Source: a virus. Taken from it: a stretch of 64,000 bases of DNA. Positions within the stretch are counted from its first letter, which is position 1; the number at the start of each line of letters is the position of its first letter. The notes under the pieces were generated by a model. That model saw only the letters and a list, made by a program, of their open reading frames with translations, ran no database searches and was not told the DNA's origin. Of this stretch, positions 11,276-64,000 are shown piece after piece. The position numbers and the translations under genes are program-made. Where the stretch lies: IMG/VR virus record IMGVR_UViG_3300029904_000004, positions 1 through 64,000 of that record, one strand, 5' to 3'.

Positions 11276-12183
11276 TCCTGCTCGTATACACTAAAATCAT
11301 CCGCACAAGAACCTTAGAGTCACGTGCTGGTGTTTATTAATCGAGGATTACAGGAGTTTAATCAAAATTAATAACCACCGTCTATGAATTGACATAGAAT
11401 CAAAGAGCCTTGGAGCCATGTAGGATGTAAAACTCTCAAAATAGGGAGAATAAACTATATTATCTTTTTACCACCAATCATTGGTTACAATTTGAGAACC
11501 TTTGAGTCATTGTGTATTATTGAATTTGCTCTGATACATAACAAATTGTAAATCAAAAAGCGTTGTATAGCCTCAAGAACCGCAGAGTCACGAGATTACT
11601 ATATGTATTTCAATCATATTCTTTATACAACACGTGTTAGACTCATTTATTTGCGTTTTAAGAGCTTCAAAAATCGTCGATGGATTAGCTACCCATAAGC
11701 GAGAACTGAGGCGATTAGAGCGCATTTAAATGACGTTTTAGGGCATTTTGAGTTTGCTACTCAATTTGCCCACTATTTGTTCTCAAGTGATTATGACGCA
11801 AATATTATGGACCGCAGTTCGAGTCTGCGCACGTCCACGACCTCTTATTCACTGTTTGACATAATAAACACTTGGCTCAGGCATGTTGTGAAACACCCTG
11901 AGTTTTTAATACGGGCGTGACAGGATTTGACATAATAGGAGATAAGTATGATGGGAACAGATGTTCAAACAATAAATGGCAATGTAAACAACATTGTTGA
12001 CTACACTCACGTAGCGTGAGCACAGTCATTAAGTAGCTGTACTTAATTAATTAAAACAGTAAGGAGCCTGGCACCCAGATGGTAAGTGGTTGATGTTATA
12101 TAGGAGAGTTATTTAAATAACCTTGTATATAGCTATAAAAGTTCATGGTTCGAGTCCATGCAGGCTCCCAAAATCAATTTATT
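11276..12183 (+). other. ORF-free region with periodic repeats and T-arm-like hairpins; candidate structured RNA(s) or regulatory array
   Basis: The track has no ORF of 60 aa or more in any frame here. Four copies of an AGAACC-NN-(A/T)GAGTCA-like motif occur at about 11307, 11403, 11494 and 11575. GGTTCGAGTCC-type hairpins lie at 11809-11836 and 12144-12160. Confidence 0.5.
12063..12168 (+). other. tRNA-like element (acceptor-type 7-8 bp helix plus canonical T-arm) of non-canonical length (~105 nt)
   Basis: GGAGCCTG at 12063-12070 pairs with CAGGCTCC at 12161-12168. T-arm is CATGG-TTCGAGT-CCATG. The middle part folds as a long AT-rich hairpin and I could not fit a normal D arm or anticodon arm by eye. 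Confidence 0.3.
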
Positions 12184-13441: not shown

Positions 13442-13999
13442 ATGAACAGTCTCAAAAACGCAGTGACGATTGAGACTATCAAACAAGCTCAACAAGGGTC
13501 TGTAAAAGCATTTAACAAAATATTTTATGAATATAAATCTTTTGTAGAATATATTCTACGAGATTATATAAAAGATGATGATGAAGCTAAAGATTTAGCG
13601 AATATTGTTTTCTTAAAAATTCATGATAAGTTAATGTCTTTTACGGACTATGTTAATTTTAAAGGGTGGATTCGTACAATTACGAAGAACACTGCTATTG
13701 ATTATCTTAGAACCATAAAAGAAAAAATGGTTTCTATAGATGATACGGAACGAAATGTTCAGTTAAATGAAGACGAAATAGACAAAGAAAAGTCTTATAC
13801 AGACCGATATACTTACGATTACGTAGTAAATATGTTCGATTCATTACCTGAACAATACTCTCGAATATGTAAGATGTTTTATATAAACAATCTTACTATT
13901 AATCAGATTTCAAAAAAGCTCAATGTGCCAAAGGGAACTATTAAGTCGTATTTGCATAGAGCCCGTTCAATAATCAAAAACCAGTTAAAATTATGTTAA
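13442..13999 (+). CDS. ECF-type (sigma-70 family group 4) RNA polymerase sigma factor
   Basis: Region 2-like DEAKDLANIVFLKIHDKLMSF...FKGWIRTITKNTAIDYLR. Region 4-like LPEQYSRICKMFYINNLTINQISKKLNVPKGTIKSYLHRARSIIKNQL. Confidence 0.85.
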   Translation: MNSLKNAVTIETIKQAQQGSVKAFNKIFYEYKSFVEYILRDYIKDDDEAKDLANIVFLKIHDKLMSFTDYVNFKGWIRTITKNTAIDYLRTIKEKMVSIDDTERNVQLNEDEIDKEKSYTDRYTYDYVVNMFDSLPEQYSRICKMFYINNLTINQISKKLNVPKGTIKSYLHRARSIIKNQLKLC

Positions 14000-15860: not shown

Positions 15861-16014
15861 CGCAGTTGCGTCGTGAAAGAAAAAAGCGACATGTACAATT
15901 AGTCATTGATGATGTCAAAGATACAATTAGTAGACGTATTAATAATATCAAAGACAAAATCAGCAACTGCTTAGACAATATGAGTAATTAACTAACCACA
16001 AAATCATTATCAAA

Positions 16015-16425
16015 ATGAAAAAATTAAGTACAATGCTTTGCTGTATATGCTTAGCAGTTTTCGGTGCTGTAGTGGGATTAAATAATAAAAGTCCCGCAGT
16101 AACAGCAAATGCGGCACCTGTGTTTGCAGGTGTTCCGTTAGACCTTAGAATGCCTAAAATGCATTACGACACAATATATGTGTCAAAAGACACCGTAATG
16201 CCGTGCAATAAGCGTCACTATCCAAAAGTTAAGGTTGTAAGGAAACCTTATGCAGTACACGATACTTTGTATGTACCTGTACTGAAAACAATTGTCCTGA
16301 GGGTTCGTGAGGAGATTTCCCAGAGTTATACGAAGTATGGTGTTGTGCATGATACTATACAAACTCAAAAAACGTTAGAATCTCCCGACAGTGTGAGTGT
16401 GACCCCTGTCGAGTATATTCATTAA
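16015..16425 (+). CDS. secreted or membrane-anchored protein (136 aa)
   Basis: ORF track. N-terminal signal-like MKKLSTMLCCICLAVFGAVVG. Conserved leader. Confidence 0.65.
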   Translation: MKKLSTMLCCICLAVFGAVVGLNNKSPAVTANAAPVFAGVPLDLRMPKMHYDTIYVSKDTVMPCNKRHYPKVKVVRKPYAVHDTLYVPVLKTIVLRVREEISQSYTKYGVVHDTIQTQKTLESPDSVSVTPVEYIH

Positions 16426-18498
16426 TGATTAGGTCTCATTAGCCTGATATAACAATGAAATACTTCAAAAGTAACTGGGTGGGAGAATATGTTAGCCTCC
16501 TCAAGAGGTGAGAAACTCAAAAGGTACCACGAAAGGCATATTGCGTGAAAAACAATATGTCAGTAGGGAGAGCGTTGTATCAACCCTAACATTTTGTATA
16601 TGAGAACCGACTGGAGATATACAATCTAAGGAAGACGCGTAAGTCGTGAGTTGACAATCATGCAAAACGAACCGTAGCTAATACTCTTTATTATTCGATA
16701 CAGATAATATTGGTAACGTTACAAGTGCTGCAAGATATAAGTCTCCAAAACTTATATTATGTATCAACAATGCTTACTCTAGTGTTTCTGCGTTCCAAGC
16801 GTAGTATAAAGGGAGGACAATAATCGGAGTAATAGTAGAGAAGGACTTGGTAGATATTCTATGATTTAGATTAGGGTATGTCAAATAGACCAAGCTGTAT
16901 GGTAAATACAGTGTCTAGATAAATCCGTACTGTTTGATTCAGTAGCCTTTTGAGTCATTAAAGGGTCCAGAGATGCGGTAAAAATTATGGCTGAGAAAAC
17001 TACTACCGACCGCCAGGCCTTGGTCGTTCATGCGGTATATAAAAGTGGAATGACCAGATGTATGGGGCAAATACATAGCGTCTAGAGTCCGCGTTCATAG
17101 GACTGAAGACAGAATTGTGGTATGTGCATTAGCAACACAAAACACATGAAATAGATGTTAATGAGATGACTACTTGACAGTCAAAAGAAGGCATTTTAAT
17201 GCTTGGATGCCCGAAAGAAATAAGCATACATTAGTTGATTCGAGGTATAGCACGCCAGCTATAACTGACCTCCACTAATGCCAGTAAAATGTTATAATCC
17301 CTATTTACAGATATATTCATAGAATTATATAATATCTATTATTCTCTATGTAAAGAGAAAGAACCTATTACACTAAGGAATAATGATAGTTATTACATAT
17401 GATAGTAGTGCATATAATTAGAGTATTGAAATAAAGAAAAAGATTATACATAAAGGTGTAGGAGAAAAGCTACATATTAAGTATTCTCACAAAGTAACAT
17501 TGTTTAACAAAAATCGATGTCCTCCGGATGTGAAAAACCTTATGTTGTAAATAAGAAGTAACTCCCGGAAAGTTCGAGTGCCAACCGTTATGTGGTAACC
17601 AGACTAAACTTTACATGTGAAAATGTGAAGGTAAATCTAAAGGTAGAACCAATACAGAAAGATAAGTAGGCAGCTCATGCTCAGTATCGCAGTGCAGTAA
17701 GCGTATGCGTGTTAGTGATGAACTAACCTTGGTGTATACTGTCTCTATACATCAGGAAAGTATGAGTGGGTGATAACTATTTAGTATGTATTCAGTTAAA
17801 TTCTGACGTATTCGCGCACTATAAATAAAGTTGGTTTTTAGTAAGGTTTTCCGTAGAATAACCACCGTAGACTCGTAGATACCCACTGAAGGCTAGAGTG
17901 TTCGATAATGAAACGTTTGGTTGTTTACGTTAAAAACAATACGTGGAGACTATTGATTGTTCTACCTGCCACAAGTAAAGGGAGAACAGGGGTAGCTGCG
18001 CCTAATCAGGTATCGCAAGACAGGATTACAGCAGCGGAGAATGACCACTCCTTAAAACACTTATATCCAAGTCTGGGAAACAAGGATATTTGAATCTTAT
18101 CGGTTTAACTTAATCTGGCAGAGTATATCTACGATTCCGCGAAACATTAGATATATATCTGTCAGATAAAAACAATTAGTTTTCTATTCCAAAAAAGAGT
18201 TTGCATATGAAATGCTAAATGTCATTCGAAGCTTTCCTGGGATATGGTTAATATGGGTTATGAAGCTTAGCTAATCCTACCATTGGATTCTTCTGTTATA
18301 TTGAGCCTCCTCGAACGAGTAATAGTATATAACAAGCCTGTATTGTATTAAAGCGAATCTTTAGCTACAAAGATAACATTAAAAAGAAAAACTCTGGAAT
18401 CAAAACAAACAAAAAGCTCGTGTAAAGCTGATTTACACATTAGTAATAAAATTTGTCGTGGGTGGAATCAACCACGATATCAAAAAGGACAAATTTTT
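16426..18498 (+). other. 2.07-kb ORF-free region; candidate large structured non-coding RNA(s)
   Basis: The track shows only one marginal 61-aa ORF (17908..18093) in six frames. Several GC-rich hairpins are visible (for example AGTCC-GCGTTCATA-GGACT near 17085 and CGACC...GGTCG near 17008). It shares motifs with the 11.3-12.2 kb and 20.57-20.66 kb regions. Confidence 0.45.
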
Positions 18499-19107
18499 AT
18501 GGAAAAAACAGCCATTAACGTACGGTTGGTAGAAGACAACCGCGTAAATATTTCAATGTTCGGCCCGCTTTATGGCCATCGTATTTATAAAGCAGCGAAA
18601 ATAGCATGTATTCTTGACTTTAACGCAAAGTTGCGTGACGCACAAGAAAACAATGCCGGTTTGTTAACCAACCGTACTCCATATCGATACAAGATTATTC
18701 CAATCGATATAGTTGGGTTAGACTTGGAGAAGGATATCGACGGGTCTAACGTAATTGTAATTAACAAGGGAAGGGTTGACGAGAACGGCGATTCTATAGA
18801 GATTCGATGCCCGATTGACAATAGCAAGTTTACGAAGGAAGTTAGCGTAGAGACTGTATCAGACGTCCTGAACAAGAAGGATTCTACTGCAGTATACTTC
18901 GCAAACGCACGTAAGCTTGTGGAGGTATTGAATCCGAGTAACAACAACGAGATTGCTCGCATAGAGCGTCTTGTAGACGACCTTAACAAGATTAAGGACA
19001 TGATTAAGCAGACTCGTGATTACAATATCACAAGTGTTAACGATTATTTCCGACAGCTTGATAAGGACAAGGAGCAGGTAAAAATCAATGTAACTGTTGA
19101 AGACTAA
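18499..19107 (+). CDS. hypothetical protein (202 aa)
   Basis: ORF track. Confidence 0.7.
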   Translation: MEKTAINVRLVEDNRVNISMFGPLYGHRIYKAAKIACILDFNAKLRDAQENNAGLLTNRTPYRYKIIPIDIVGLDLEKDIDGSNVIVINKGRVDENGDSIEIRCPIDNSKFTKEVSVETVSDVLNKKDSTAVYFANARKLVEVLNPSNNNEIARIERLVDDLNKIKDMIKQTRDYNITSVNDYFRQLDKDKEQVKINVTVED

Positions 19108-19744: not shown

Positions 19745-19820
19745 GACTCTATAGCTCAGTTGGTAGAGCAACAGGCTTTTAATCTGTGGGTCCAGAGTTC
19801 GAATCTCTGTAGAGTCACCA
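19745..19820 (+). tRNA. tRNA-Lys (anticodon UUU), CCA encoded
   Basis: Hand-folded cloverleaf. Acceptor GACTCTA/TAGAGTC. D-arm GCTC-AGTTGGTA-GAGC. Anticodon arm ACAGG-CTTTTAA-TCTGT. T-arm CAGAG-TTCGAAT-CTCTG. Ends in ACCA. Confidence 0.85.
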
Positions 19821-19879: not shown

Positions 19880-20428
19880 ATGAATAAATCAATGAAATTG
19901 ACATCTAAAGATATAATTGCACAGCGTGATAATATTTGTAAGACAAAGACTAAGTATTGGCGAATAATTAAAGCCGAGAATGTGATGACAAAGAAGGCTA
20001 AAGCGGCAGGTATGGGGTCTGGTTTTGACCTTAAGGCTCTCCACAATCAGATACTTCAAATGTCAGATAAGCTTATAAAAATTAAACTTATGCTCAATGC
20101 TATTAATAATGGCATTACAACATTTAATTTTGAAGAAGCTAAGAAGACTCATTATTACACAATATATCTCGCATGTGAGAAAAAAGAGCAAATGGCTCAT
20201 TGGGATGAAATCCTTACAAAACACACAATAAATCCTGCAACTAAGGCTAAAGCCGGAATTAAGGGTACAGGTAAGATTGAAACATTTACTTCAGCTAAGA
20301 TAGCTTCTATTAAAAAGAATCTTCAGCTTGAGATAAATAAGCTTGATGCAGATATTGCCAAGTTTAATGATAATACGACATTGGAAATAACCAATGACGA
20401 CGATATTAAAGAACTTATGGCAGTATAA
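19880..20428 (+). CDS. hypothetical protein (182 aa)
   Basis: ORF track. Confidence 0.7.
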   Translation: MNKSMKLTSKDIIAQRDNICKTKTKYWRIIKAENVMTKKAKAAGMGSGFDLKALHNQILQMSDKLIKIKLMLNAINNGITTFNFEEAKKTHYYTIYLACEKKEQMAHWDEILTKHTINPATKAKAGIKGTGKIETFTSAKIASIKKNLQLEINKLDADIAKFNDNTTLEITNDDDIKELMAV

Positions 20429-20440
20429 ATATCATATATT

Positions 20441-20498
20441 ACTATATGCATAGGGCAGTCCTTAGAGAAGTGTGGTTCGAGTCCCACTATAGTAACCA
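20441..20498 (+). other. truncated tRNA-like minihelix (acceptor stem + T-arm + ACCA, no D-arm)
   Basis: TACTATA pairs with TATAGTA. The T-arm is GTG(T)GG-TTCGAGT-CCCAC and the element ends in ACCA. Only ~21 nt lie between the acceptor stem and the T-arm, and no 7-nt anticodon loop could be folded. Confidence 0.3.
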
Positions 20499-20603
20499 AT
20501 TCGGTCTCGTCTATCGGAAACATCGCTTCCTTCTTTTTCAAGCATAATATCAGTTTTTAATTTTTGTTAGTTGGTTTTTGTTTGTATTAGTAAGGCGTTG
20601 AGG

Positions 20604-20655
20604 ACGTATGCGTAGTGATACGTATAAAAGATAGGTTCGACTCCTATGACCGAAC
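20604..20655 (+). other. tRNA-like 3' module (hairpin with 8-nt loop + perfect T-arm)
   Basis: ACGTAT-GCGTAGTG-ATACGT hairpin, then ATAGG-TTCGACT-CCTAT, then GACCGAA. The only complement (TTCGGTC) lies ~150 nt upstream at 20500-20506. Confidence 0.25.
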
Positions 20656-20788
20656 TATTTATTTTCGATTTAACGGCCTTTCTTTGCCTCTGTGAGTAAT
20701 TATACTACTTTAGCCATGACATGCGCTCAGAACGCAAGGAAATGGCCTTAAATCGAATGTTTTGTTTAACCATTAAAGCATAATCAAT

Positions 20789-21593: not shown

Positions 21594-21679
21594 GCCTCGA
21601 TGATGGAACTGGGAGACATTTAACACTTAAAATGTTATGTTCCGTAAGGAACGTGTGGGTTCGAATCCCACTCGAGGTA
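21594..21679 (+). tRNA. tRNA-Leu (anticodon UAA), class II with long variable arm
   Basis: Acceptor GCCTCGA/TCGAGGT. 3-bp D-stem ATG/CAT. Anticodon arm TAACA-CTTAAAA-TGTTA. Variable arm GTTCC-GTAA-GGAAC. T-arm GTGGG-TTCGAAT-CCCAC. Confidence 0.8.
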
Positions 21680-62677: not shown

Positions 62678-63101
62678 CTATGTTTATATAATCGTGTTTA
62701 TTAAATATAAGCTGTGCTAATTTACGTTTATTTGCTCGTACAAGTGATAATCTATATTTGTATATATCAGGGAATGTGTTTTCATTTTTAGACCAGTATA
62801 ACCTATATTTGTAACCATCACTATGCTCGTTTAAATGATATATTGTTTTACCGAGCTCGTTGCTTGTTTTATAATCCTTAGACAAGCTCTTATTTGTATA
62901 TGTTTTAGGCTTGTATTTAACTATGCATATAAAACCTAGTCTCTAAGGCATTTTAAAGCCTTCTGACGCGTTTAAAAGTAAATCCAGTAGATTTATATTA
63001 AACTGCTCTAAAATGCGCTTAAAACGCAAATATGACGTATTCTCGTCAATCTTTTTGTAAGCTTTATACATGTCCCTGATTGTAAATGATTTTTTCATCA
63101 T
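62652..63101 (-). CDS. HU/IHF-like DNA-binding protein (~149 aa, 1 in-frame TAG)
   Basis: Track fragment 62652..62885 extends through the TAG at 62943 to ATGATG at 63096-63101. The stretch GFKMP-*-RLGFICIVKYKPK resembles the HU/IHF beta-arm entry (GFGxFxV.xR). TGA stop. Confidence 0.55.
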
Positions 63102-63778
63102 GCTTTCCACCCTTTAAGTTCTAACGATTGTGGTTTAATATCTTCAAGGGTAGAGTTGTTTTCTTCATCACTTGGGGTACGAATTAAGAAGTTGAGTTCG
63201 TTCGCCATAATCATTTGCTTGATTTGCGGAACCATCCACCCGGGAATGTTTATTCCGTCCTCATCTTCTTCATCAGTATCTACAAATATACCAGTAAGCC
63301 ATATATATTTCAATTCGTTCTAATCTACAAGTCCTTGTATATACACACGATTGTTTGTAAAACTCCACGACAATTCACCAAATGTATACTTCCTGTAATA
63401 CTAAAAATGTCTGCGTTTACTATTCATGTACTAAATTGGACAACCTTCCTGATCGAATACTGCAATAATGTTGTATGGATCGTCTGCTATTAATTCGGGT
63501 ATATCTTCCTTGGTACGTTTTGTAAATAAACAAGAACCATCCAATCCTTTAACGTCTTCTAACTCCAAAGGACCGATGGTTTTGTACATACTCTTATCGT
63601 CTTCATCTTCTCCGTTATCACGTTCCCGATCTCTTTTTTGTTTGAGTAATAACGCTTTGTACGATAATATCCAGTGAGCAATCTACGCCCTAGAGAAGTC
63701 TTCACTTTCACTTATGTTGTTATTACGTAAAAGTAGCATTATGTCGTCTATTAACGACCTAAGTGAAAACATTTTCAT
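63098..63778 (-). CDS. late protein (~226 aa, 4 in-frame TAG)
   Basis: Track fragment 63098..63313 extends upstream through four TAGs to the ATG at 63776-63778. TGA stop overlaps the next ATG. Confidence 0.55.
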
Positions 63779-64000
63779 ATTTCTGTATTTTCTATTATTC
63801 TTACACTATCTTCTTTTATTAGTTCGTTACTGTTTACTATCTTATACTTATATTTAGTTACTTTTTTCCAATCTAATGTAAACAGTCTCTAAAAGAAGTT
63901 CTTCTTGTTTTTATATTCTTTCTTTTTGTATACATACAGATATTGCTGATTACGTATATCTACTCTCATTCGTATACTGTCTTTATCTATATTATAATAT
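63775..64000 (-). CDS. 3' end of a further late gene (partial; continues beyond the window)
   Basis: The frame is open from 64000 down to the TGA at 63775-63777 with one in-frame TAG (~63889). ATGA junction with the next gene. Confidence 0.45.

What the first reader, a model, noticed from the sequence alone, without database searches (positions are those of the whole stretch)
16426..18498. A 2.07-kb stretch with essentially no ORFs in a genome otherwise packed gene to gene
In six frames the track shows only one 61-aa ORF (17908..18093), and TAG read-through does not rescue any frame.
- **Structure by eye:** the region looks locally GC-richer than its surroundings and contains many short hairpins. 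One is a T-loop-like AGTCC-GCGTTCATA-GGACT (~17085). There are also three CGTAGA repeats at ~17851-17880.
- **Shared motifs:** AGTTGGTTTTT..AGTAAGG (17830 versus 20575) and GCGTATGCGTG..AGTGAT (17700 versus 20605) recur near the tRNA cluster. An AACC..GAGTCA-type motif (16603, 16942) is shared with the 11.3-kb region.

Large ornate RNAs such as GOLLD and ROOL are known to be phage-borne and to sit next to tRNA genes. I cannot test membership here. A novel giant structured RNA, or a self-splicing intron remnant, is a reasonable hypothesis.
Basis: partly seen in the sequence, partly recalled or inferred. Interest (0 to 1): 0.75.

Follow-up and report, generated by a model that had tools for sequence, protein, structure and literature searches.

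The report
Giant structured RNA of crAss-like phages
The 2-kb gene-free stretch is a conserved non-coding element whose base pairs co-vary like those of a folded RNA. It sits at the same spot in all five subfamilies of the abundant gut-phage family Suoliviridae and matches no known RNA family, so it may be the largest structured RNA yet seen in a phage.

Summary
The ORF-free stretch is real. It is the largest stop-codon-dense gap in the window, no alternative genetic code rescues it, and its conservation shows no codon periodicity (2.0, against 78 for the neighbouring gene).

The window is a crAss-like phage of the family Suoliviridae. The same 1.85-2.5-kb gap lies at the same syntenic position in reference genomes of all five subfamilies. 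I collected 104 full-length copies (49 non-redundant, 1919-2320 nt, mean identity 56%). Their sequence blocks stay invariant although the flanking proteins are only 25-44% identical.

Four stretches (about 16430-16830, 16865-17200, 17505-17935 and 18200-18380) carry 219 predicted pairs, 138 of them with compensatory changes. These beat every shuffle and slide control. G-U versus A-C asymmetry and folding energy favour the + strand. A T-loop-like hairpin and a covariation-supported pseudoknot are present.

Rfam 15 (4227 families, including GOLLD, ROOL, introns, rRNA and RNase P) gives nothing even at E ≤ 10, and eight literature searches found no description.

Not shown: transcription, transcript ends, whether it is one RNA or a tight array of RNAs (no long-range helix is supported), and function. 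My best reading is a new, family-wide, giant structured phage RNA of the GOLLD/ROOL kind.

The parts
16426..18498 (+). Whole conserved ORF-free element. It runs from the stop codon of the 136-aa ORF (16015..16425) to the ATG of the 202-aa ORF (18499).
   Evidence: - ORF and stop-codon analysis.
- Full-length collinear homologues, 104 copies of 1919-2320 nt.
- Syntenic gaps in all five Suoliviridae subfamilies.
- No period-3 signal.
16430..16446 (+). 5' terminal hairpin with a covarying 5-bp stem and a near-invariant loop UCUCAUUAG. It starts about 5 nt after the upstream stop codon.
   Evidence: Helix 1 of A6; searches show 3-4 Watson-Crick pair types at the outer pairs.
16470..16661 (+). 5' core domain. 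It contains AAUAUGU, a hairpin with loop UCUCAAA, CAAAAGGUA, a hairpin with loop GUGAAAA, a GGG/CCC hairpin and GAGAACCGNCUGG.
   Evidence: - Covariance model R1 finds it in Oafivirinae, Loutivirinae (135-139 bits), Boorivirinae (71 bits), Bearivirinae (37 bits) and Uncouvirinae (26 bits).
- 54-sequence alignment A11: 95.1% paired against 73.7% shuffled, 212 against 51 compensatory cells.
16673..16815 (+). Second half of the 5' region, with local helices 16673-80/16722-28, 16734-40/16752-58, 16777-80/16812-15 and 16785-92/16800-10.
   Evidence: The local helix 16673-80/16722-28 is compensated in the window's own clade. This argues against the long-range alternatives RNAalifold proposed.
16857..17185 (+). 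Central domain with seven helices, including a 13-bp helix (17020-33/17045-57) around the invariant internal loop GGUAUAUAAAAGU.
   Evidence: Alignment A4: 43 pairs, 29 with compensatory change, 93.6% paired against 75.6% shuffled, covariation 0.541 against 0.202, 0 of 500 shuffles; slid controls 0.06-0.12.
16928..16944 (+). T-loop-like hairpin: 5-bp covarying stem with a 7-nt loop, UUUGAUU here and UUCGAUU in the consensus.
   Evidence: Helix 2 of A4, all five pairs with compensatory changes. The sequence is read. The T-loop assignment is by resemblance to the tRNA T-loop consensus (my own knowledge), not a 3D test.
17078..17109 (+). A pseudoknot-type pairing joins loop nucleotides 17090-92 (CGC) to 17078-80 (GCG).
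   Evidence: - Helix 6 of A4.
- The pseudoknot is compensated independently in four lineages: GCC/GGC, GCU/AGC, CCCG/CGGG and UGCG/CGCA.
17200..17504 (+). AT-rich (29% GC), poorly conserved linker of variable length.
   Evidence: Conservation profile, GC, and no consensus helices. It holds a sigma-70-like TTTACA-18-TATAAT at 17304-17333, and no conserved Bacteroidetes-type promoter was found at any aligned position.
17505..17935 (+). 3' core domain: 13 helices forming a multi-stem junction closed by 17577-81/17816-20.
   Evidence: - Alignment A5: 74 pairs, 42 compensatory, 89.4% paired against 74.2% shuffled, covariation 0.446 against 0.186, 0 of 500.
- The closing helix switches GAGUGC/GCACU to GACUGC/GCAGU in Loutivirinae.
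17936..18199 (+). Variable region without a conserved structure. It contains the only 61-aa ORF (17908..18093), which is not conserved.
   Evidence: Alignment A7 has no consensus pairs here. The ORF has no PHROG hit.
18200..18380 (+). Distal domain: a hairpin with a UUGA-type loop, CAUUCAAAGCUUU, a hairpin AAUCC-UACCGUU-GGAUU and enclosing helices.
   Evidence: Alignment A7: 38 pairs, 21 compensatory, 88.1% paired against 77.1% shuffled, covariation 0.356 against 0.161.
18451..18498 (+). Conserved stem-loop (the outer stem covaries) followed by the invariant AUCAAAAAGGA just before the ATG of the 202-aa gene. It may be the 3' end of the RNA or the translation/transcription control region of the downstream gene.
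   Evidence: pair types 2-3 per position.

Best explanation
The stretch is the gene for a very large structured non-coding RNA, conserved across the crAss-like phage family Suoliviridae.

**How I think it works**
1. It is read from the + strand, together with or just after the rightward replication/early-middle gene block.
2. It folds into a chain of at least four autonomously folding domains with about 48 conserved helices. Tertiary devices (a pseudoknot and a T-loop-like hairpin) and long invariant single-stranded junction sequences stabilise the fold.
3. It acts as an RNA during infection rather than as a message, as a scaffold, particle or catalyst. It belongs with the other large 'ornate' phage-borne RNAs (GOLLD, ROOL). 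Like them it sits among translation-related RNA genes: a permuted tmRNA 4.3 kb upstream and tRNA-Lys 1.2 kb downstream.

**Shown**
- It is non-coding.
- It is conserved family-wide in position, size and sequence blocks.
- It has secondary structure supported by covariation, and a pseudoknot.
- Strand evidence prefers +.
- It matches no known RNA family.

**Inferred**
- That it is transcribed.
- That it is a single ~1.9-2.0-kb molecule.
- That it acts in trans.
- That its role touches host or phage translation or RNA metabolism.

**Confidence by step**
- Functional structured RNA element: about 0.85.
- Single molecule: about 0.5.
- The specific GOLLD/ROOL-like, translation-linked role: about 0.2.
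For: **Non-coding**
- It is the largest stop-dense gap in the window, and no alternative genetic code rescues it.
- Homologues have ORF content like shuffled sequence.
- The period-3 power of conservation is 2.0, against 78.1 for the adjacent CDS.

**Conservation**
- The gap is syntenic and 1.85-2.5 kb long in Oafivirinae, Loutivirinae, Boorivirinae, Uncouvirinae and Bearivirinae reference genomes.
- There are 104 full-length copies, 49 non-redundant, at mean identity 0.56.
- The flanking proteins are only 25-44% identical.
- CM R1 detects the 5' core in all five subfamilies.

**Structure**
- Counts against controls for the alignments: A6, A4, A5, A7 and A11.
- 88-95% of cells are paired, against 72-77% when shuffled.
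- Compensatory cells are 3-4 times the shuffled number.
- Covariation scores are 0.36-0.56, against 0.16-0.20 shuffled and 0.02-0.15 for slid partners.
- 0 of 500 shuffles reach the observed values (one of the five measures on A7, further pair types, was reached by 138 of 500 shuffles).
- Of the top 120 unbiased MIp pairs, 45 are canonical (at least 85% standard pairs) and 41 fall in the predicted structure.
- The pseudoknot is compensated in four lineages.

**Strand**
- RNAalifold gives -264 for + and -224 for -.
- In pairs supported by Watson-Crick covariation, G-U against A-C is 93:32 on + and 64:66 on -.
- Helix 4 of A4 has three near-invariant G-U pairs that would be A-C on the minus strand.
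- All flanking genes are on +.

**Not a known family**
- Rfam 15 finds nothing at gathering thresholds or at E ≤ 10.
Against: - There is no expression data of any kind.
- No conserved Bacteroidetes-type promoter, no conserved T-run and no intrinsic terminator on the + strand mark transcript ends.
- Only about 24% of nucleotides fall in consensus helices (235 pairs in 2000 columns).
- No helix spanning more than about 250 nt is supported. The long-range helices RNAalifold proposed are contradicted by uncompensated changes. A single molecule is therefore not demonstrated.
- Two linkers (17200-17504 and 17936-18199) are poorly conserved.
- Thermodynamic z-scores are weak, -1.7 to -2.0.
- The strand signal is ambiguous for the 5' segment.
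- The neighbouring proteins gave no functional clue.
Confidence: 0.7

Rival explanations
1. The region is a tandem array of several independent structured RNAs (four or more RNAs of roughly 150-450 nt), co-transcribed and perhaps processed. It would then be a conserved non-coding 'RNA operon' rather than one giant molecule.
For: - All supported covariation is local, with spans of about 250 nt or less.
- The long-range helices are contradicted.
- Two weakly conserved, length-variable linkers separate the conserved blocks.
- In the distant subfamilies only some blocks are detectable by sequence.
Against: - The order, orientation and total length of the blocks are constant in 104 copies and across five subfamilies.
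- No conserved promoter motif or T-run was found between blocks.
- Large RNAs such as rRNA domains also show mainly local helices in shallow alignments.
Confidence: 0.3
2. The region is a cis-acting untranslated region. It would be a giant structured leader controlling the downstream 202-aa and 177-aa genes, or a 3' UTR or processing platform for the upstream operon.
For: - It abuts the upstream stop codon and the downstream start codon without recognisable transcription signals.
- A conserved stem-loop plus AUCAAAAAGGA lies immediately before the ATG at 18499.
Against: - As far as I know, no 2-kb leader with about 48 conserved helices, invariant junctions and a pseudoknot has been described in bacteria or phages.
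- Conservation is stronger than in the genes it would regulate.
- Only the last ~50 nt look like a gene-proximal control element.
Confidence: 0.1
3. The region is a DNA-level element. It would be a replication origin, packaging site or protein-binding array whose hairpins form in single-stranded DNA.
For: - It lies in the replication gene block, about 3.3 kb upstream of the DNA polymerase gene.
- It contains an AT-rich segment at 29% GC.
Against: - Cumulative GC skew rises smoothly through the region with no inflection.
- No iteron-like repeats were found.
- G-U wobble pairs are tolerated on one strand only.
- Dozens of different covarying helices are not what binding-site arrays look like.
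Confidence: 0.05
4. The region is the decayed remnant of a mobile element, either an ORF-less group I or II intron or a retroelement RNA.
For: Yutin et al. 2021 (PMC7886860) report many group I introns in Delta-group (Suoliviridae) genomes.
Against: - There is no Rfam hit to intron families even at E ≤ 10.
- It lies between two complete genes, not inside one.
- It is present at the same site in every subfamily. That is vertical inheritance under purifying selection, not sporadic mobility.
- No reverse transcriptase or homing endonuclease is nearby.
Confidence: 0.03
5. The region is a protein-coding gene hidden by an unusual code, frameshifts or editing.
For: Stop-codon recoding is common in this phage family (PMC7886860). 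Some database records annotate small CDSs here.
Against: - No single stop reassignment opens a frame.
- There is no period-3 signal (2.0 against 78.1).
- The annotated small CDSs lie on both strands and are not conserved between genomes.
- The compensatory base-pair substitutions are a pattern that coding constraint does not explain.
Confidence: 0.01

Closest known systems
[quoted passage not shown]
   Same: - It is a large, intricately structured non-coding RNA of unknown biochemical function.
- It is carried by phages or prophages and typically sits next to tRNA genes (my own knowledge; PMC12286853 abstract).
- The element here is likewise phage-borne, multi-domain and has a pseudoknot.
- It lies between a tmRNA gene and tRNA genes.
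   Different: - No sequence or structure match to the Rfam model, even at E ≤ 10.
- About 2.5 times longer (about 2000 nt against about 800 nt).
- It is found in crAss-like phages; Crassvirales infect Bacteroidetes (PMC10136315), not Lactobacillales.
- GOLLD forms a homo-oligomeric RNA-only complex by cryo-EM (PMC12286853). Nothing is known here about assembly.
ROOL RNA (Rumen-Originating, Ornate, Large; Rfam family)
   Same: - It is a large ornate RNA, frequent in gut and rumen metagenomes and in phages, often near tRNAs (PMC5737381; my own knowledge).
- Many copies of the present element also come from gut samples (human, macaque and pig faeces).
   Different: - No Rfam match.
- About 3.5 times longer (about 2000 nt against about 580 nt).
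- Unrelated conserved motifs.
- The distribution is restricted, as far as tested, to one phage family.
OLE RNA and other large bacterial ncRNAs (raiA, HEARO)
   Same: It has size-class and conservation pattern typical of functional RNPs or ribozymes: invariant junction sequences alongside covarying stems.
   Different: - OLE, raiA and HEARO are cellular or transposon-associated and are at most about 600 nt (my own knowledge).
- OLE has dedicated protein partners. No partner is identified here, and the syntenic 466-aa and 202-aa proteins have no recognisable fold relatives.
Ribosomal RNA domains / RNase P RNA (as architectural comparison only)
   Same: - The length is between 16S and 23S rRNA.
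- It is a chain of locally closed multi-helix domains.
- It uses a T-loop-like hairpin and has long invariant single-stranded segments.
   Different: - No Rfam hit to SSU, LSU or RNase P models.
- A far lower fraction of nucleotides lies in conserved helices (about 24%).
- It is not universal; it is specific to one phage family.

Membership tests
GOLLD RNA | Match to the family's covariance model (conserved core sequence and structure) | tested here: not met
   cmscan of Rfam 15 found no hit in 16000-19000 at gathering score or at E ≤ 10.
GOLLD RNA | Phage or prophage location adjacent to tRNA genes | tested here: met
   The genome is a crAss-like phage. tRNA-Lys is at 19745, tRNA-Leu at 21594 and a permuted tmRNA at 11748-12110.
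GOLLD RNA | Homo-oligomeric RNA-only assembly (cryo-EM) | not testable with these tools
   This needs in vitro transcription followed by cryo-EM or mass photometry.
ROOL RNA | Match to the family's covariance model | tested here: not met
   No Rfam hit at E ≤ 10.
Group II intron | Domain V/VI and D1-D4 core detectable by Rfam models; insertion within a host gene; usually an intron-encoded reverse transcriptase | tested here: not met
   There is no Rfam hit. The element lies between two complete ORFs. No reverse-transcriptase domain is in the neighbours.
Group I intron | P3-P8 catalytic core (Rfam Intron_gpI); interruption of a coding or RNA gene; often a homing endonuclease | tested here: not met
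   There is no Rfam hit. It is intergenic at the same site in all subfamilies. No endonuclease ORF is present.
tRNA / tmRNA / tRNA-like structure | Cloverleaf or tmRNA model match | tested here: not met
   ARAGORN and Rfam find tRNA and tmRNA genes only outside the element. Only an isolated T-arm-like hairpin is present, at 16928-16944.
Large structured ('ornate') non-coding RNA, operational class | Several hundred nucleotides or more, non-coding, with many conserved helices supported by covariation, multi-stem junctions, pseudoknot(s) and invariant unpaired nucleotides | tested here: met
Large structured ('ornate') non-coding RNA, operational class | Expressed as a discrete stable RNA | not testable with these tools
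   No transcriptome data were available. Three short metagenome contigs start exactly at the 5' end, which is only a lead.
Protein-coding gene with reassigned stop codon | An open frame under code 4, code 15 or TAA-sense; three-base periodicity of substitutions | tested here: not met

The most novel reading that the evidence does not exclude
The whole 16430-18400 stretch is one ~2-kb RNA molecule. It would be the largest non-ribosomal structured RNA known in any bacterial virus and a defining gene of Suoliviridae. It would work as an RNA machine or self-assembling RNA/RNP particle that the phage uses to take over or re-tune host translation or RNA metabolism. This phage family also carries tmRNA and tRNA genes and switches stop-codon meaning in late genes.
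Probability: 0.3. Interest if true: 0.92.

Novelty: categorically new. Interest (0 to 1): 0.85.

Why it matters
- **Abundance.** Crassvirales are the most abundant phages of the human gut. In Yutin et al. [quoted passage not shown]
- **Scale.** A conserved 2-kb RNA gene means about 2% of each of these genomes is devoted to an unrecognised RNA function. That is far larger than GOLLD or ROOL, whose functions are still an open question. A third, much bigger and unrelated phage-borne example near translation-related RNA genes would sharpen that question. It would also give structural biology (cryo-EM of RNA-only particles) a new target.
- **Annotation.** The element corrects database records. Several records place small 'hypothetical protein' CDSs on both strands of this region.
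- **Practical use.** Its invariant blocks give a family-specific marker for Suoliviridae.

Tried and rejected
- **Rfam.** Scans at gathering thresholds and at E ≤ 10 found nothing in the element.
- **Alternative genetic codes.** No frame opens.
- **Promoter and terminator scans.** The sigma-70 and terminator scan found nothing conserved or informative. A search for conserved Bacteroidetes TAnnTTTG promoters or T-runs at aligned positions found none.
- **Long-range helices from RNAalifold.** It proposed 16673-81/17901-10, 16722-29/17863-70 and 16546-49/18225-28. I rejected them: the window's clade changes both 16677-79 and 16724-26 while the supposed 3' partners stay invariant, which supports the local helix instead.
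- **Thermodynamic stability.** Z-scores are only -1.7 to -2.0.
- **Neighbouring proteins as functional clues.**
  - PHROGs, Pfam and PDB sequence searches gave nothing for the 466-aa, 136-aa, 202-aa and 177-aa proteins.
  - Homologue searches returned only unnamed proteins or ones labelled 'hypothetical protein'.
  - AlphaFold models had pLDDT 74 and 79, and Foldseek against the PDB found nothing with E < 0.1.
- **Failed or unhelpful searches.**
  - The search for related loci with a protein alignment failed for lack of conserved words.
  - One encoding-contig look-up gave only a 1.3-kb contig.
Those with the 20.5-kb and 11.3-kb regions look like chance.
- **Second copy in the window.** A weak R1 hit at 62995-63160 (-) scores 22.7 bits with a poor alignment. 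It lies in sequence that relatives annotate as coding, so I do not count it as a second copy.
- **Literature.** Eight full-text searches found no description of this element.
Full report
**1. The observation**

- In 16426..18498 the longest ORF is 61 aa.
- 16423..18351 (1929 nt) is the longest stretch of the 64-kb window with no 80-codon stop-free run in any frame. The runner-up is 983 nt.
- Reading TAG, TGA or TAA as sense yields only scattered runs of 112 codons or fewer on both strands.
- All genes from 1 to about 30.8 kb are on the + strand.
- The 'GC-richer' remark does not hold. The region is 36.1% GC, the window is 34.7%, and both flanks are richer.
- The three CGTAGA copies and the hairpin at 17086-17104 are real.
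- The motifs shared with the 20.5-kb region exist, but they are not collinear. Only the closest relative among the seven sequences aligned shares the 17830 motif.

**2. What genome this is**

- blastn places the window among crAss-like phages of the family Suoliviridae, subfamily Oafivirinae.
- The neighbourhood reads as follows:
  - permuted tmRNA (11748-12110);
  - ECF-type sigma factor (13442-13999);
  - 466-aa protein, then 136-aa protein;
  - the gap;
  - 202-aa and 177-aa proteins;
  - tRNA-Lys;
  - further on, tRNA-Leu and the DNA polymerase.

**3. The gap is conserved in place and size**

| Subfamily | Genome(s) | Gap length (nt) |
|---|---|---|
| Oafivirinae | cr130_1, cr131_1, Bohxovirus, cr272_1 | 2025-2223 |
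| (unclassified) | Dulem virus 42 | 2116 |
| Loutivirinae | cr52_1, cr4_1 | 2109, 2147 |
| Boorivirinae | cr1_1 | 2481 |
| Uncouvirinae | cr114_1 | 1849 |
| Bearivirinae | cr6_1 | 2080 |

- In each genome the unannotated gap lies between the same genes.
- Where CDSs are annotated inside the gap they are tiny or isolated, lie on both strands, and are not shared between genomes.
- blastn with the family consensus and with a Loutivirinae copy hit only Suoliviridae records (or unclassified ones) among 50,697 phage records.

**4. Homologue collection**

- Pattern scans of IMG/VR, JGI/ENA metagenomes and GTDB genomes, followed by nhmmer, gave 104 full-length collinear copies.
- Nearly all are on contigs of about 95-105 kb, or on fragments.
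- 49 copies are non-redundant at less than 93% identity. Their lengths are 1919-2320 nt, with mean pairwise identity 0.56 and minimum 0.48.
- Two hits in 'Lachnospiraceae' MAGs are short contigs, probably mis-binned phage DNA.
- Many blocks of 8-25 nt are invariant, although the flanking proteins are only 25-44% identical.

**5. It is not coding**

- Stop-free runs in the homologues equal the shuffled expectation.
- The three-base periodicity of column conservation is 2.0 for the element (0.2-2.6 in 600-nt windows). It is 78.1 for the adjacent 202-aa gene from the same genomes.

**6. It has a conserved secondary structure**

I aligned 16 sequences of less than 80% identity in four segments. 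I counted the RNAalifold consensus pairs with the shuffle and slide controls.

| Segment | Alignment | Pairs | Pairs with compensatory change | % cells paired (shuffled) | Covariation score (shuffled) |
|---|---|---|---|---|---|
| 16400-16830 | A6 | 64 | 46 | 89.0 (71.6) | 0.530 (0.204) |
| 16865-17200 | A4 | 43 | 29 | 93.6 (75.6) | 0.541 (0.202) |
| 17505-17935 | A5 | 74 | 42 | 89.4 (74.2) | 0.446 (0.186) |
| 17936-18498 | A7 | 38 | 21 | 88.1 (77.1) | 0.356 (0.161) |

- No shuffle out of 500 reached the observed values, with one exception: on A7 the count of further pair types was reached by 138 of 500 shuffles. Partners slid by 1-3 columns scored 0.05-0.15.
- In A7 all supported pairs lie at 18200 or beyond.
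- A covariance model of the 5' core (R1, window 16470-16661) realigned 54 copies from four subfamilies. That alignment gave 95.1% paired against 73.7%, and 212 against 51 compensatory cells.
- An unbiased MIp scan put 45 canonical pairs among the top 120 column pairs, and 41 of the 120 were already in the predicted structure.

**7. Notable structural features**

- A terminal hairpin with invariant loop UCUCAUUAG lies at 16430-46.
- Hairpins carry conserved loops: GUGAAAA, GUUGUAA and YNGUAAM.
- A T-arm-like hairpin lies at 16928-44, with consensus loop UUCGAUU.
- A 13-bp helix surrounds the invariant GGUAUAUAAAAGU.
This pseudoknot-type contact is compensated independently as GCC/GGC, GCU/AGC, CCCG/CGGG and UGCG/CGCA.
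- The 3' core is a multi-helix junction closed by 17577-81/17816-20. In Loutivirinae this helix switches G-C to C-G.

**8. Strand**

- RNAalifold prefers the + strand: -264 against -224 with 49 sequences, and a summed -235 against -203 over the four segments.
- In pairs supported by Watson-Crick covariation alone, G-U outnumbers A-C 93:32 on the + reading and 64:66 on the - reading.
- Three near-invariant G-U pairs in one helix would be A-C mismatches on the other strand.
- The 5' segment alone is ambiguous.
- The + strand is also the strand of all neighbouring genes.

**9. One RNA or several?**

- The three long-range helices RNAalifold proposed do not survive inspection. The window's clade changed both strands of a local helix (16673-80/16722-28) while the alleged distant partners stayed invariant.
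- No covarying pair spans more than about 250 nt.
- Two linkers (17200-17504, 29% GC; and 17936-18199) are variable.
- Against an array: block order, orientation and overall length are constant everywhere, and no conserved promoter motif or T-run separates the blocks.
- I put 'single molecule' at about even odds.

**10. Family-wide reach**

- nhmmer finds collinear pieces of the 5', middle/3' and distal blocks in Loutivirinae.
- R1 finds the 5' core at the 5' side of the gap, on the + strand, in these subfamilies:
  - Loutivirinae: 135-139 bits;
  - Boorivirinae: 71 bits, E = 2e-17;
  - Bearivirinae: 37 bits, E = 4e-8;
  - Uncouvirinae: 26 bits, E = 2e-5.
- Other Crassvirales families were not reached by blastn. 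I did not test them with covariance models.

**11. Comparison with what is known**

- Rfam 15 (4227 families) reports only the tmRNA and two tRNAs in the window. It reports nothing in 16000-19000 beyond two chance-level hits outside the element at E ≤ 10.
- The element is therefore not GOLLD, ROOL, OLE, a group I or II intron, RNase P, rRNA or any other curated family.
- Eight full-text searches found no description.
- Yutin et al. [quoted passage not shown]
- In kind it resembles GOLLD and ROOL: large, ornate, phage-borne and near tRNA-type genes. It is unrelated in sequence and 2.5-3.5 times larger.

**12. Mechanism**

- *Shown:* a non-coding, purifying-selected, base-paired, + strand-biased element with a tertiary pairing.
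- *Inferred:* it is transcribed with the rightward gene block, folds into a chain of domains, and acts as an RNA scaffold, particle or catalyst during infection. A link to translation or RNA metabolism is possible, given its tmRNA and tRNA neighbours and the family's stop-codon recoding.
- The syntenic proteins gave no help. They have no family, sequence-to-PDB or fold matches.

**13. Verdict**

- I rate the element a new class of very large structured phage RNA, or a tight RNA array, and a hallmark of Suoliviridae.
- Expression, transcript boundaries, unity of the molecule and function remain to be shown experimentally.

Noticed in passing
window 11748-12110 (+): A permuted tmRNA gene is present (Rfam tmRNA_permuted, 66.8 bits; ARAGORN tag peptide GNVNNIVDYTHVA). 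RefSeq annotates the same gene in the relatives cr130_1 and cr131_1.
   Followed up: partly
window 20426-20776 (+): A second ORF-free stretch of 351 nt holds two T-arm-like sequences, GGTTCGAGTCCCAC at about 20476 and GGTTCGACTCC at about 20634. ARAGORN calls no tRNA there and Rfam finds nothing at E ≤ 1. These may be decayed tRNA genes or tRNA-like structures.
   Followed up: partly
window 62678-64000 (-): This is another ORF-poor stretch, with a weak match to the 5'-core model R1 at 62995-63160 (22.7 bits). Related phages annotate hypothetical proteins and a topoisomerase over the homologous DNA. It is more likely coding sequence broken by stop-codon recoding or introns than a second copy of the RNA.
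   Followed up: partly
L171 (AUXO011908612.1), L175 (AUXO011160029.1), L141 (Ga0255062_10011853): Three short metagenome contigs begin exactly at the 5' end of the element, and one (2251 nt) is co-extensive with it. If any comes from a metatranscriptome library, this would be evidence for expression and for the transcript boundary.
   Followed up: no
L003 4426-6434, L004 5247-5753 (-), L239 3263-3745 (-): The public records of Dulem virus 42, Bohxovirus 'endotrachealis' and cr7_1 carry 'hypothetical protein' CDSs inside the element. They lie on both strands and are not conserved between genomes, so they are probably annotation artefacts.
   Followed up: partly
L129, L130 (GTDB genome contigs): Two contigs of 9.8 and 39.5 kb binned into Lachnospiraceae MAGs carry the element, full-length in L130. 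They are most likely crAss-like phage contigs mis-binned into bacterial MAGs.
   Followed up: no
window 16545, 17530, 17929: A motif GTGAAAAAC(N)ATATGT recurs three times inside the element. At least the first copy is the loop and 3' stem of a covarying hairpin. It may be a repeated recognition module.
   Followed up: no
window 17304-17333 (+): A near-consensus sigma-70-type promoter (TTTACA, 18 nt, TATAAT; 11 of 12 matches) lies in the AT-rich variable linker of the element. That linker is poorly conserved in the family alignment.
   Followed up: partly
window 13442-13999 (+): The phage encodes an ECF-type sigma factor (Sigma70_r2 and r4_2). It is syntenic with the RNA element in the reference genomes where that part of the locus was retrieved (Oafivirinae, Loutivirinae, Boorivirinae, Bearivirinae). 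Its promoters are unknown and could drive the element.
   Followed up: no
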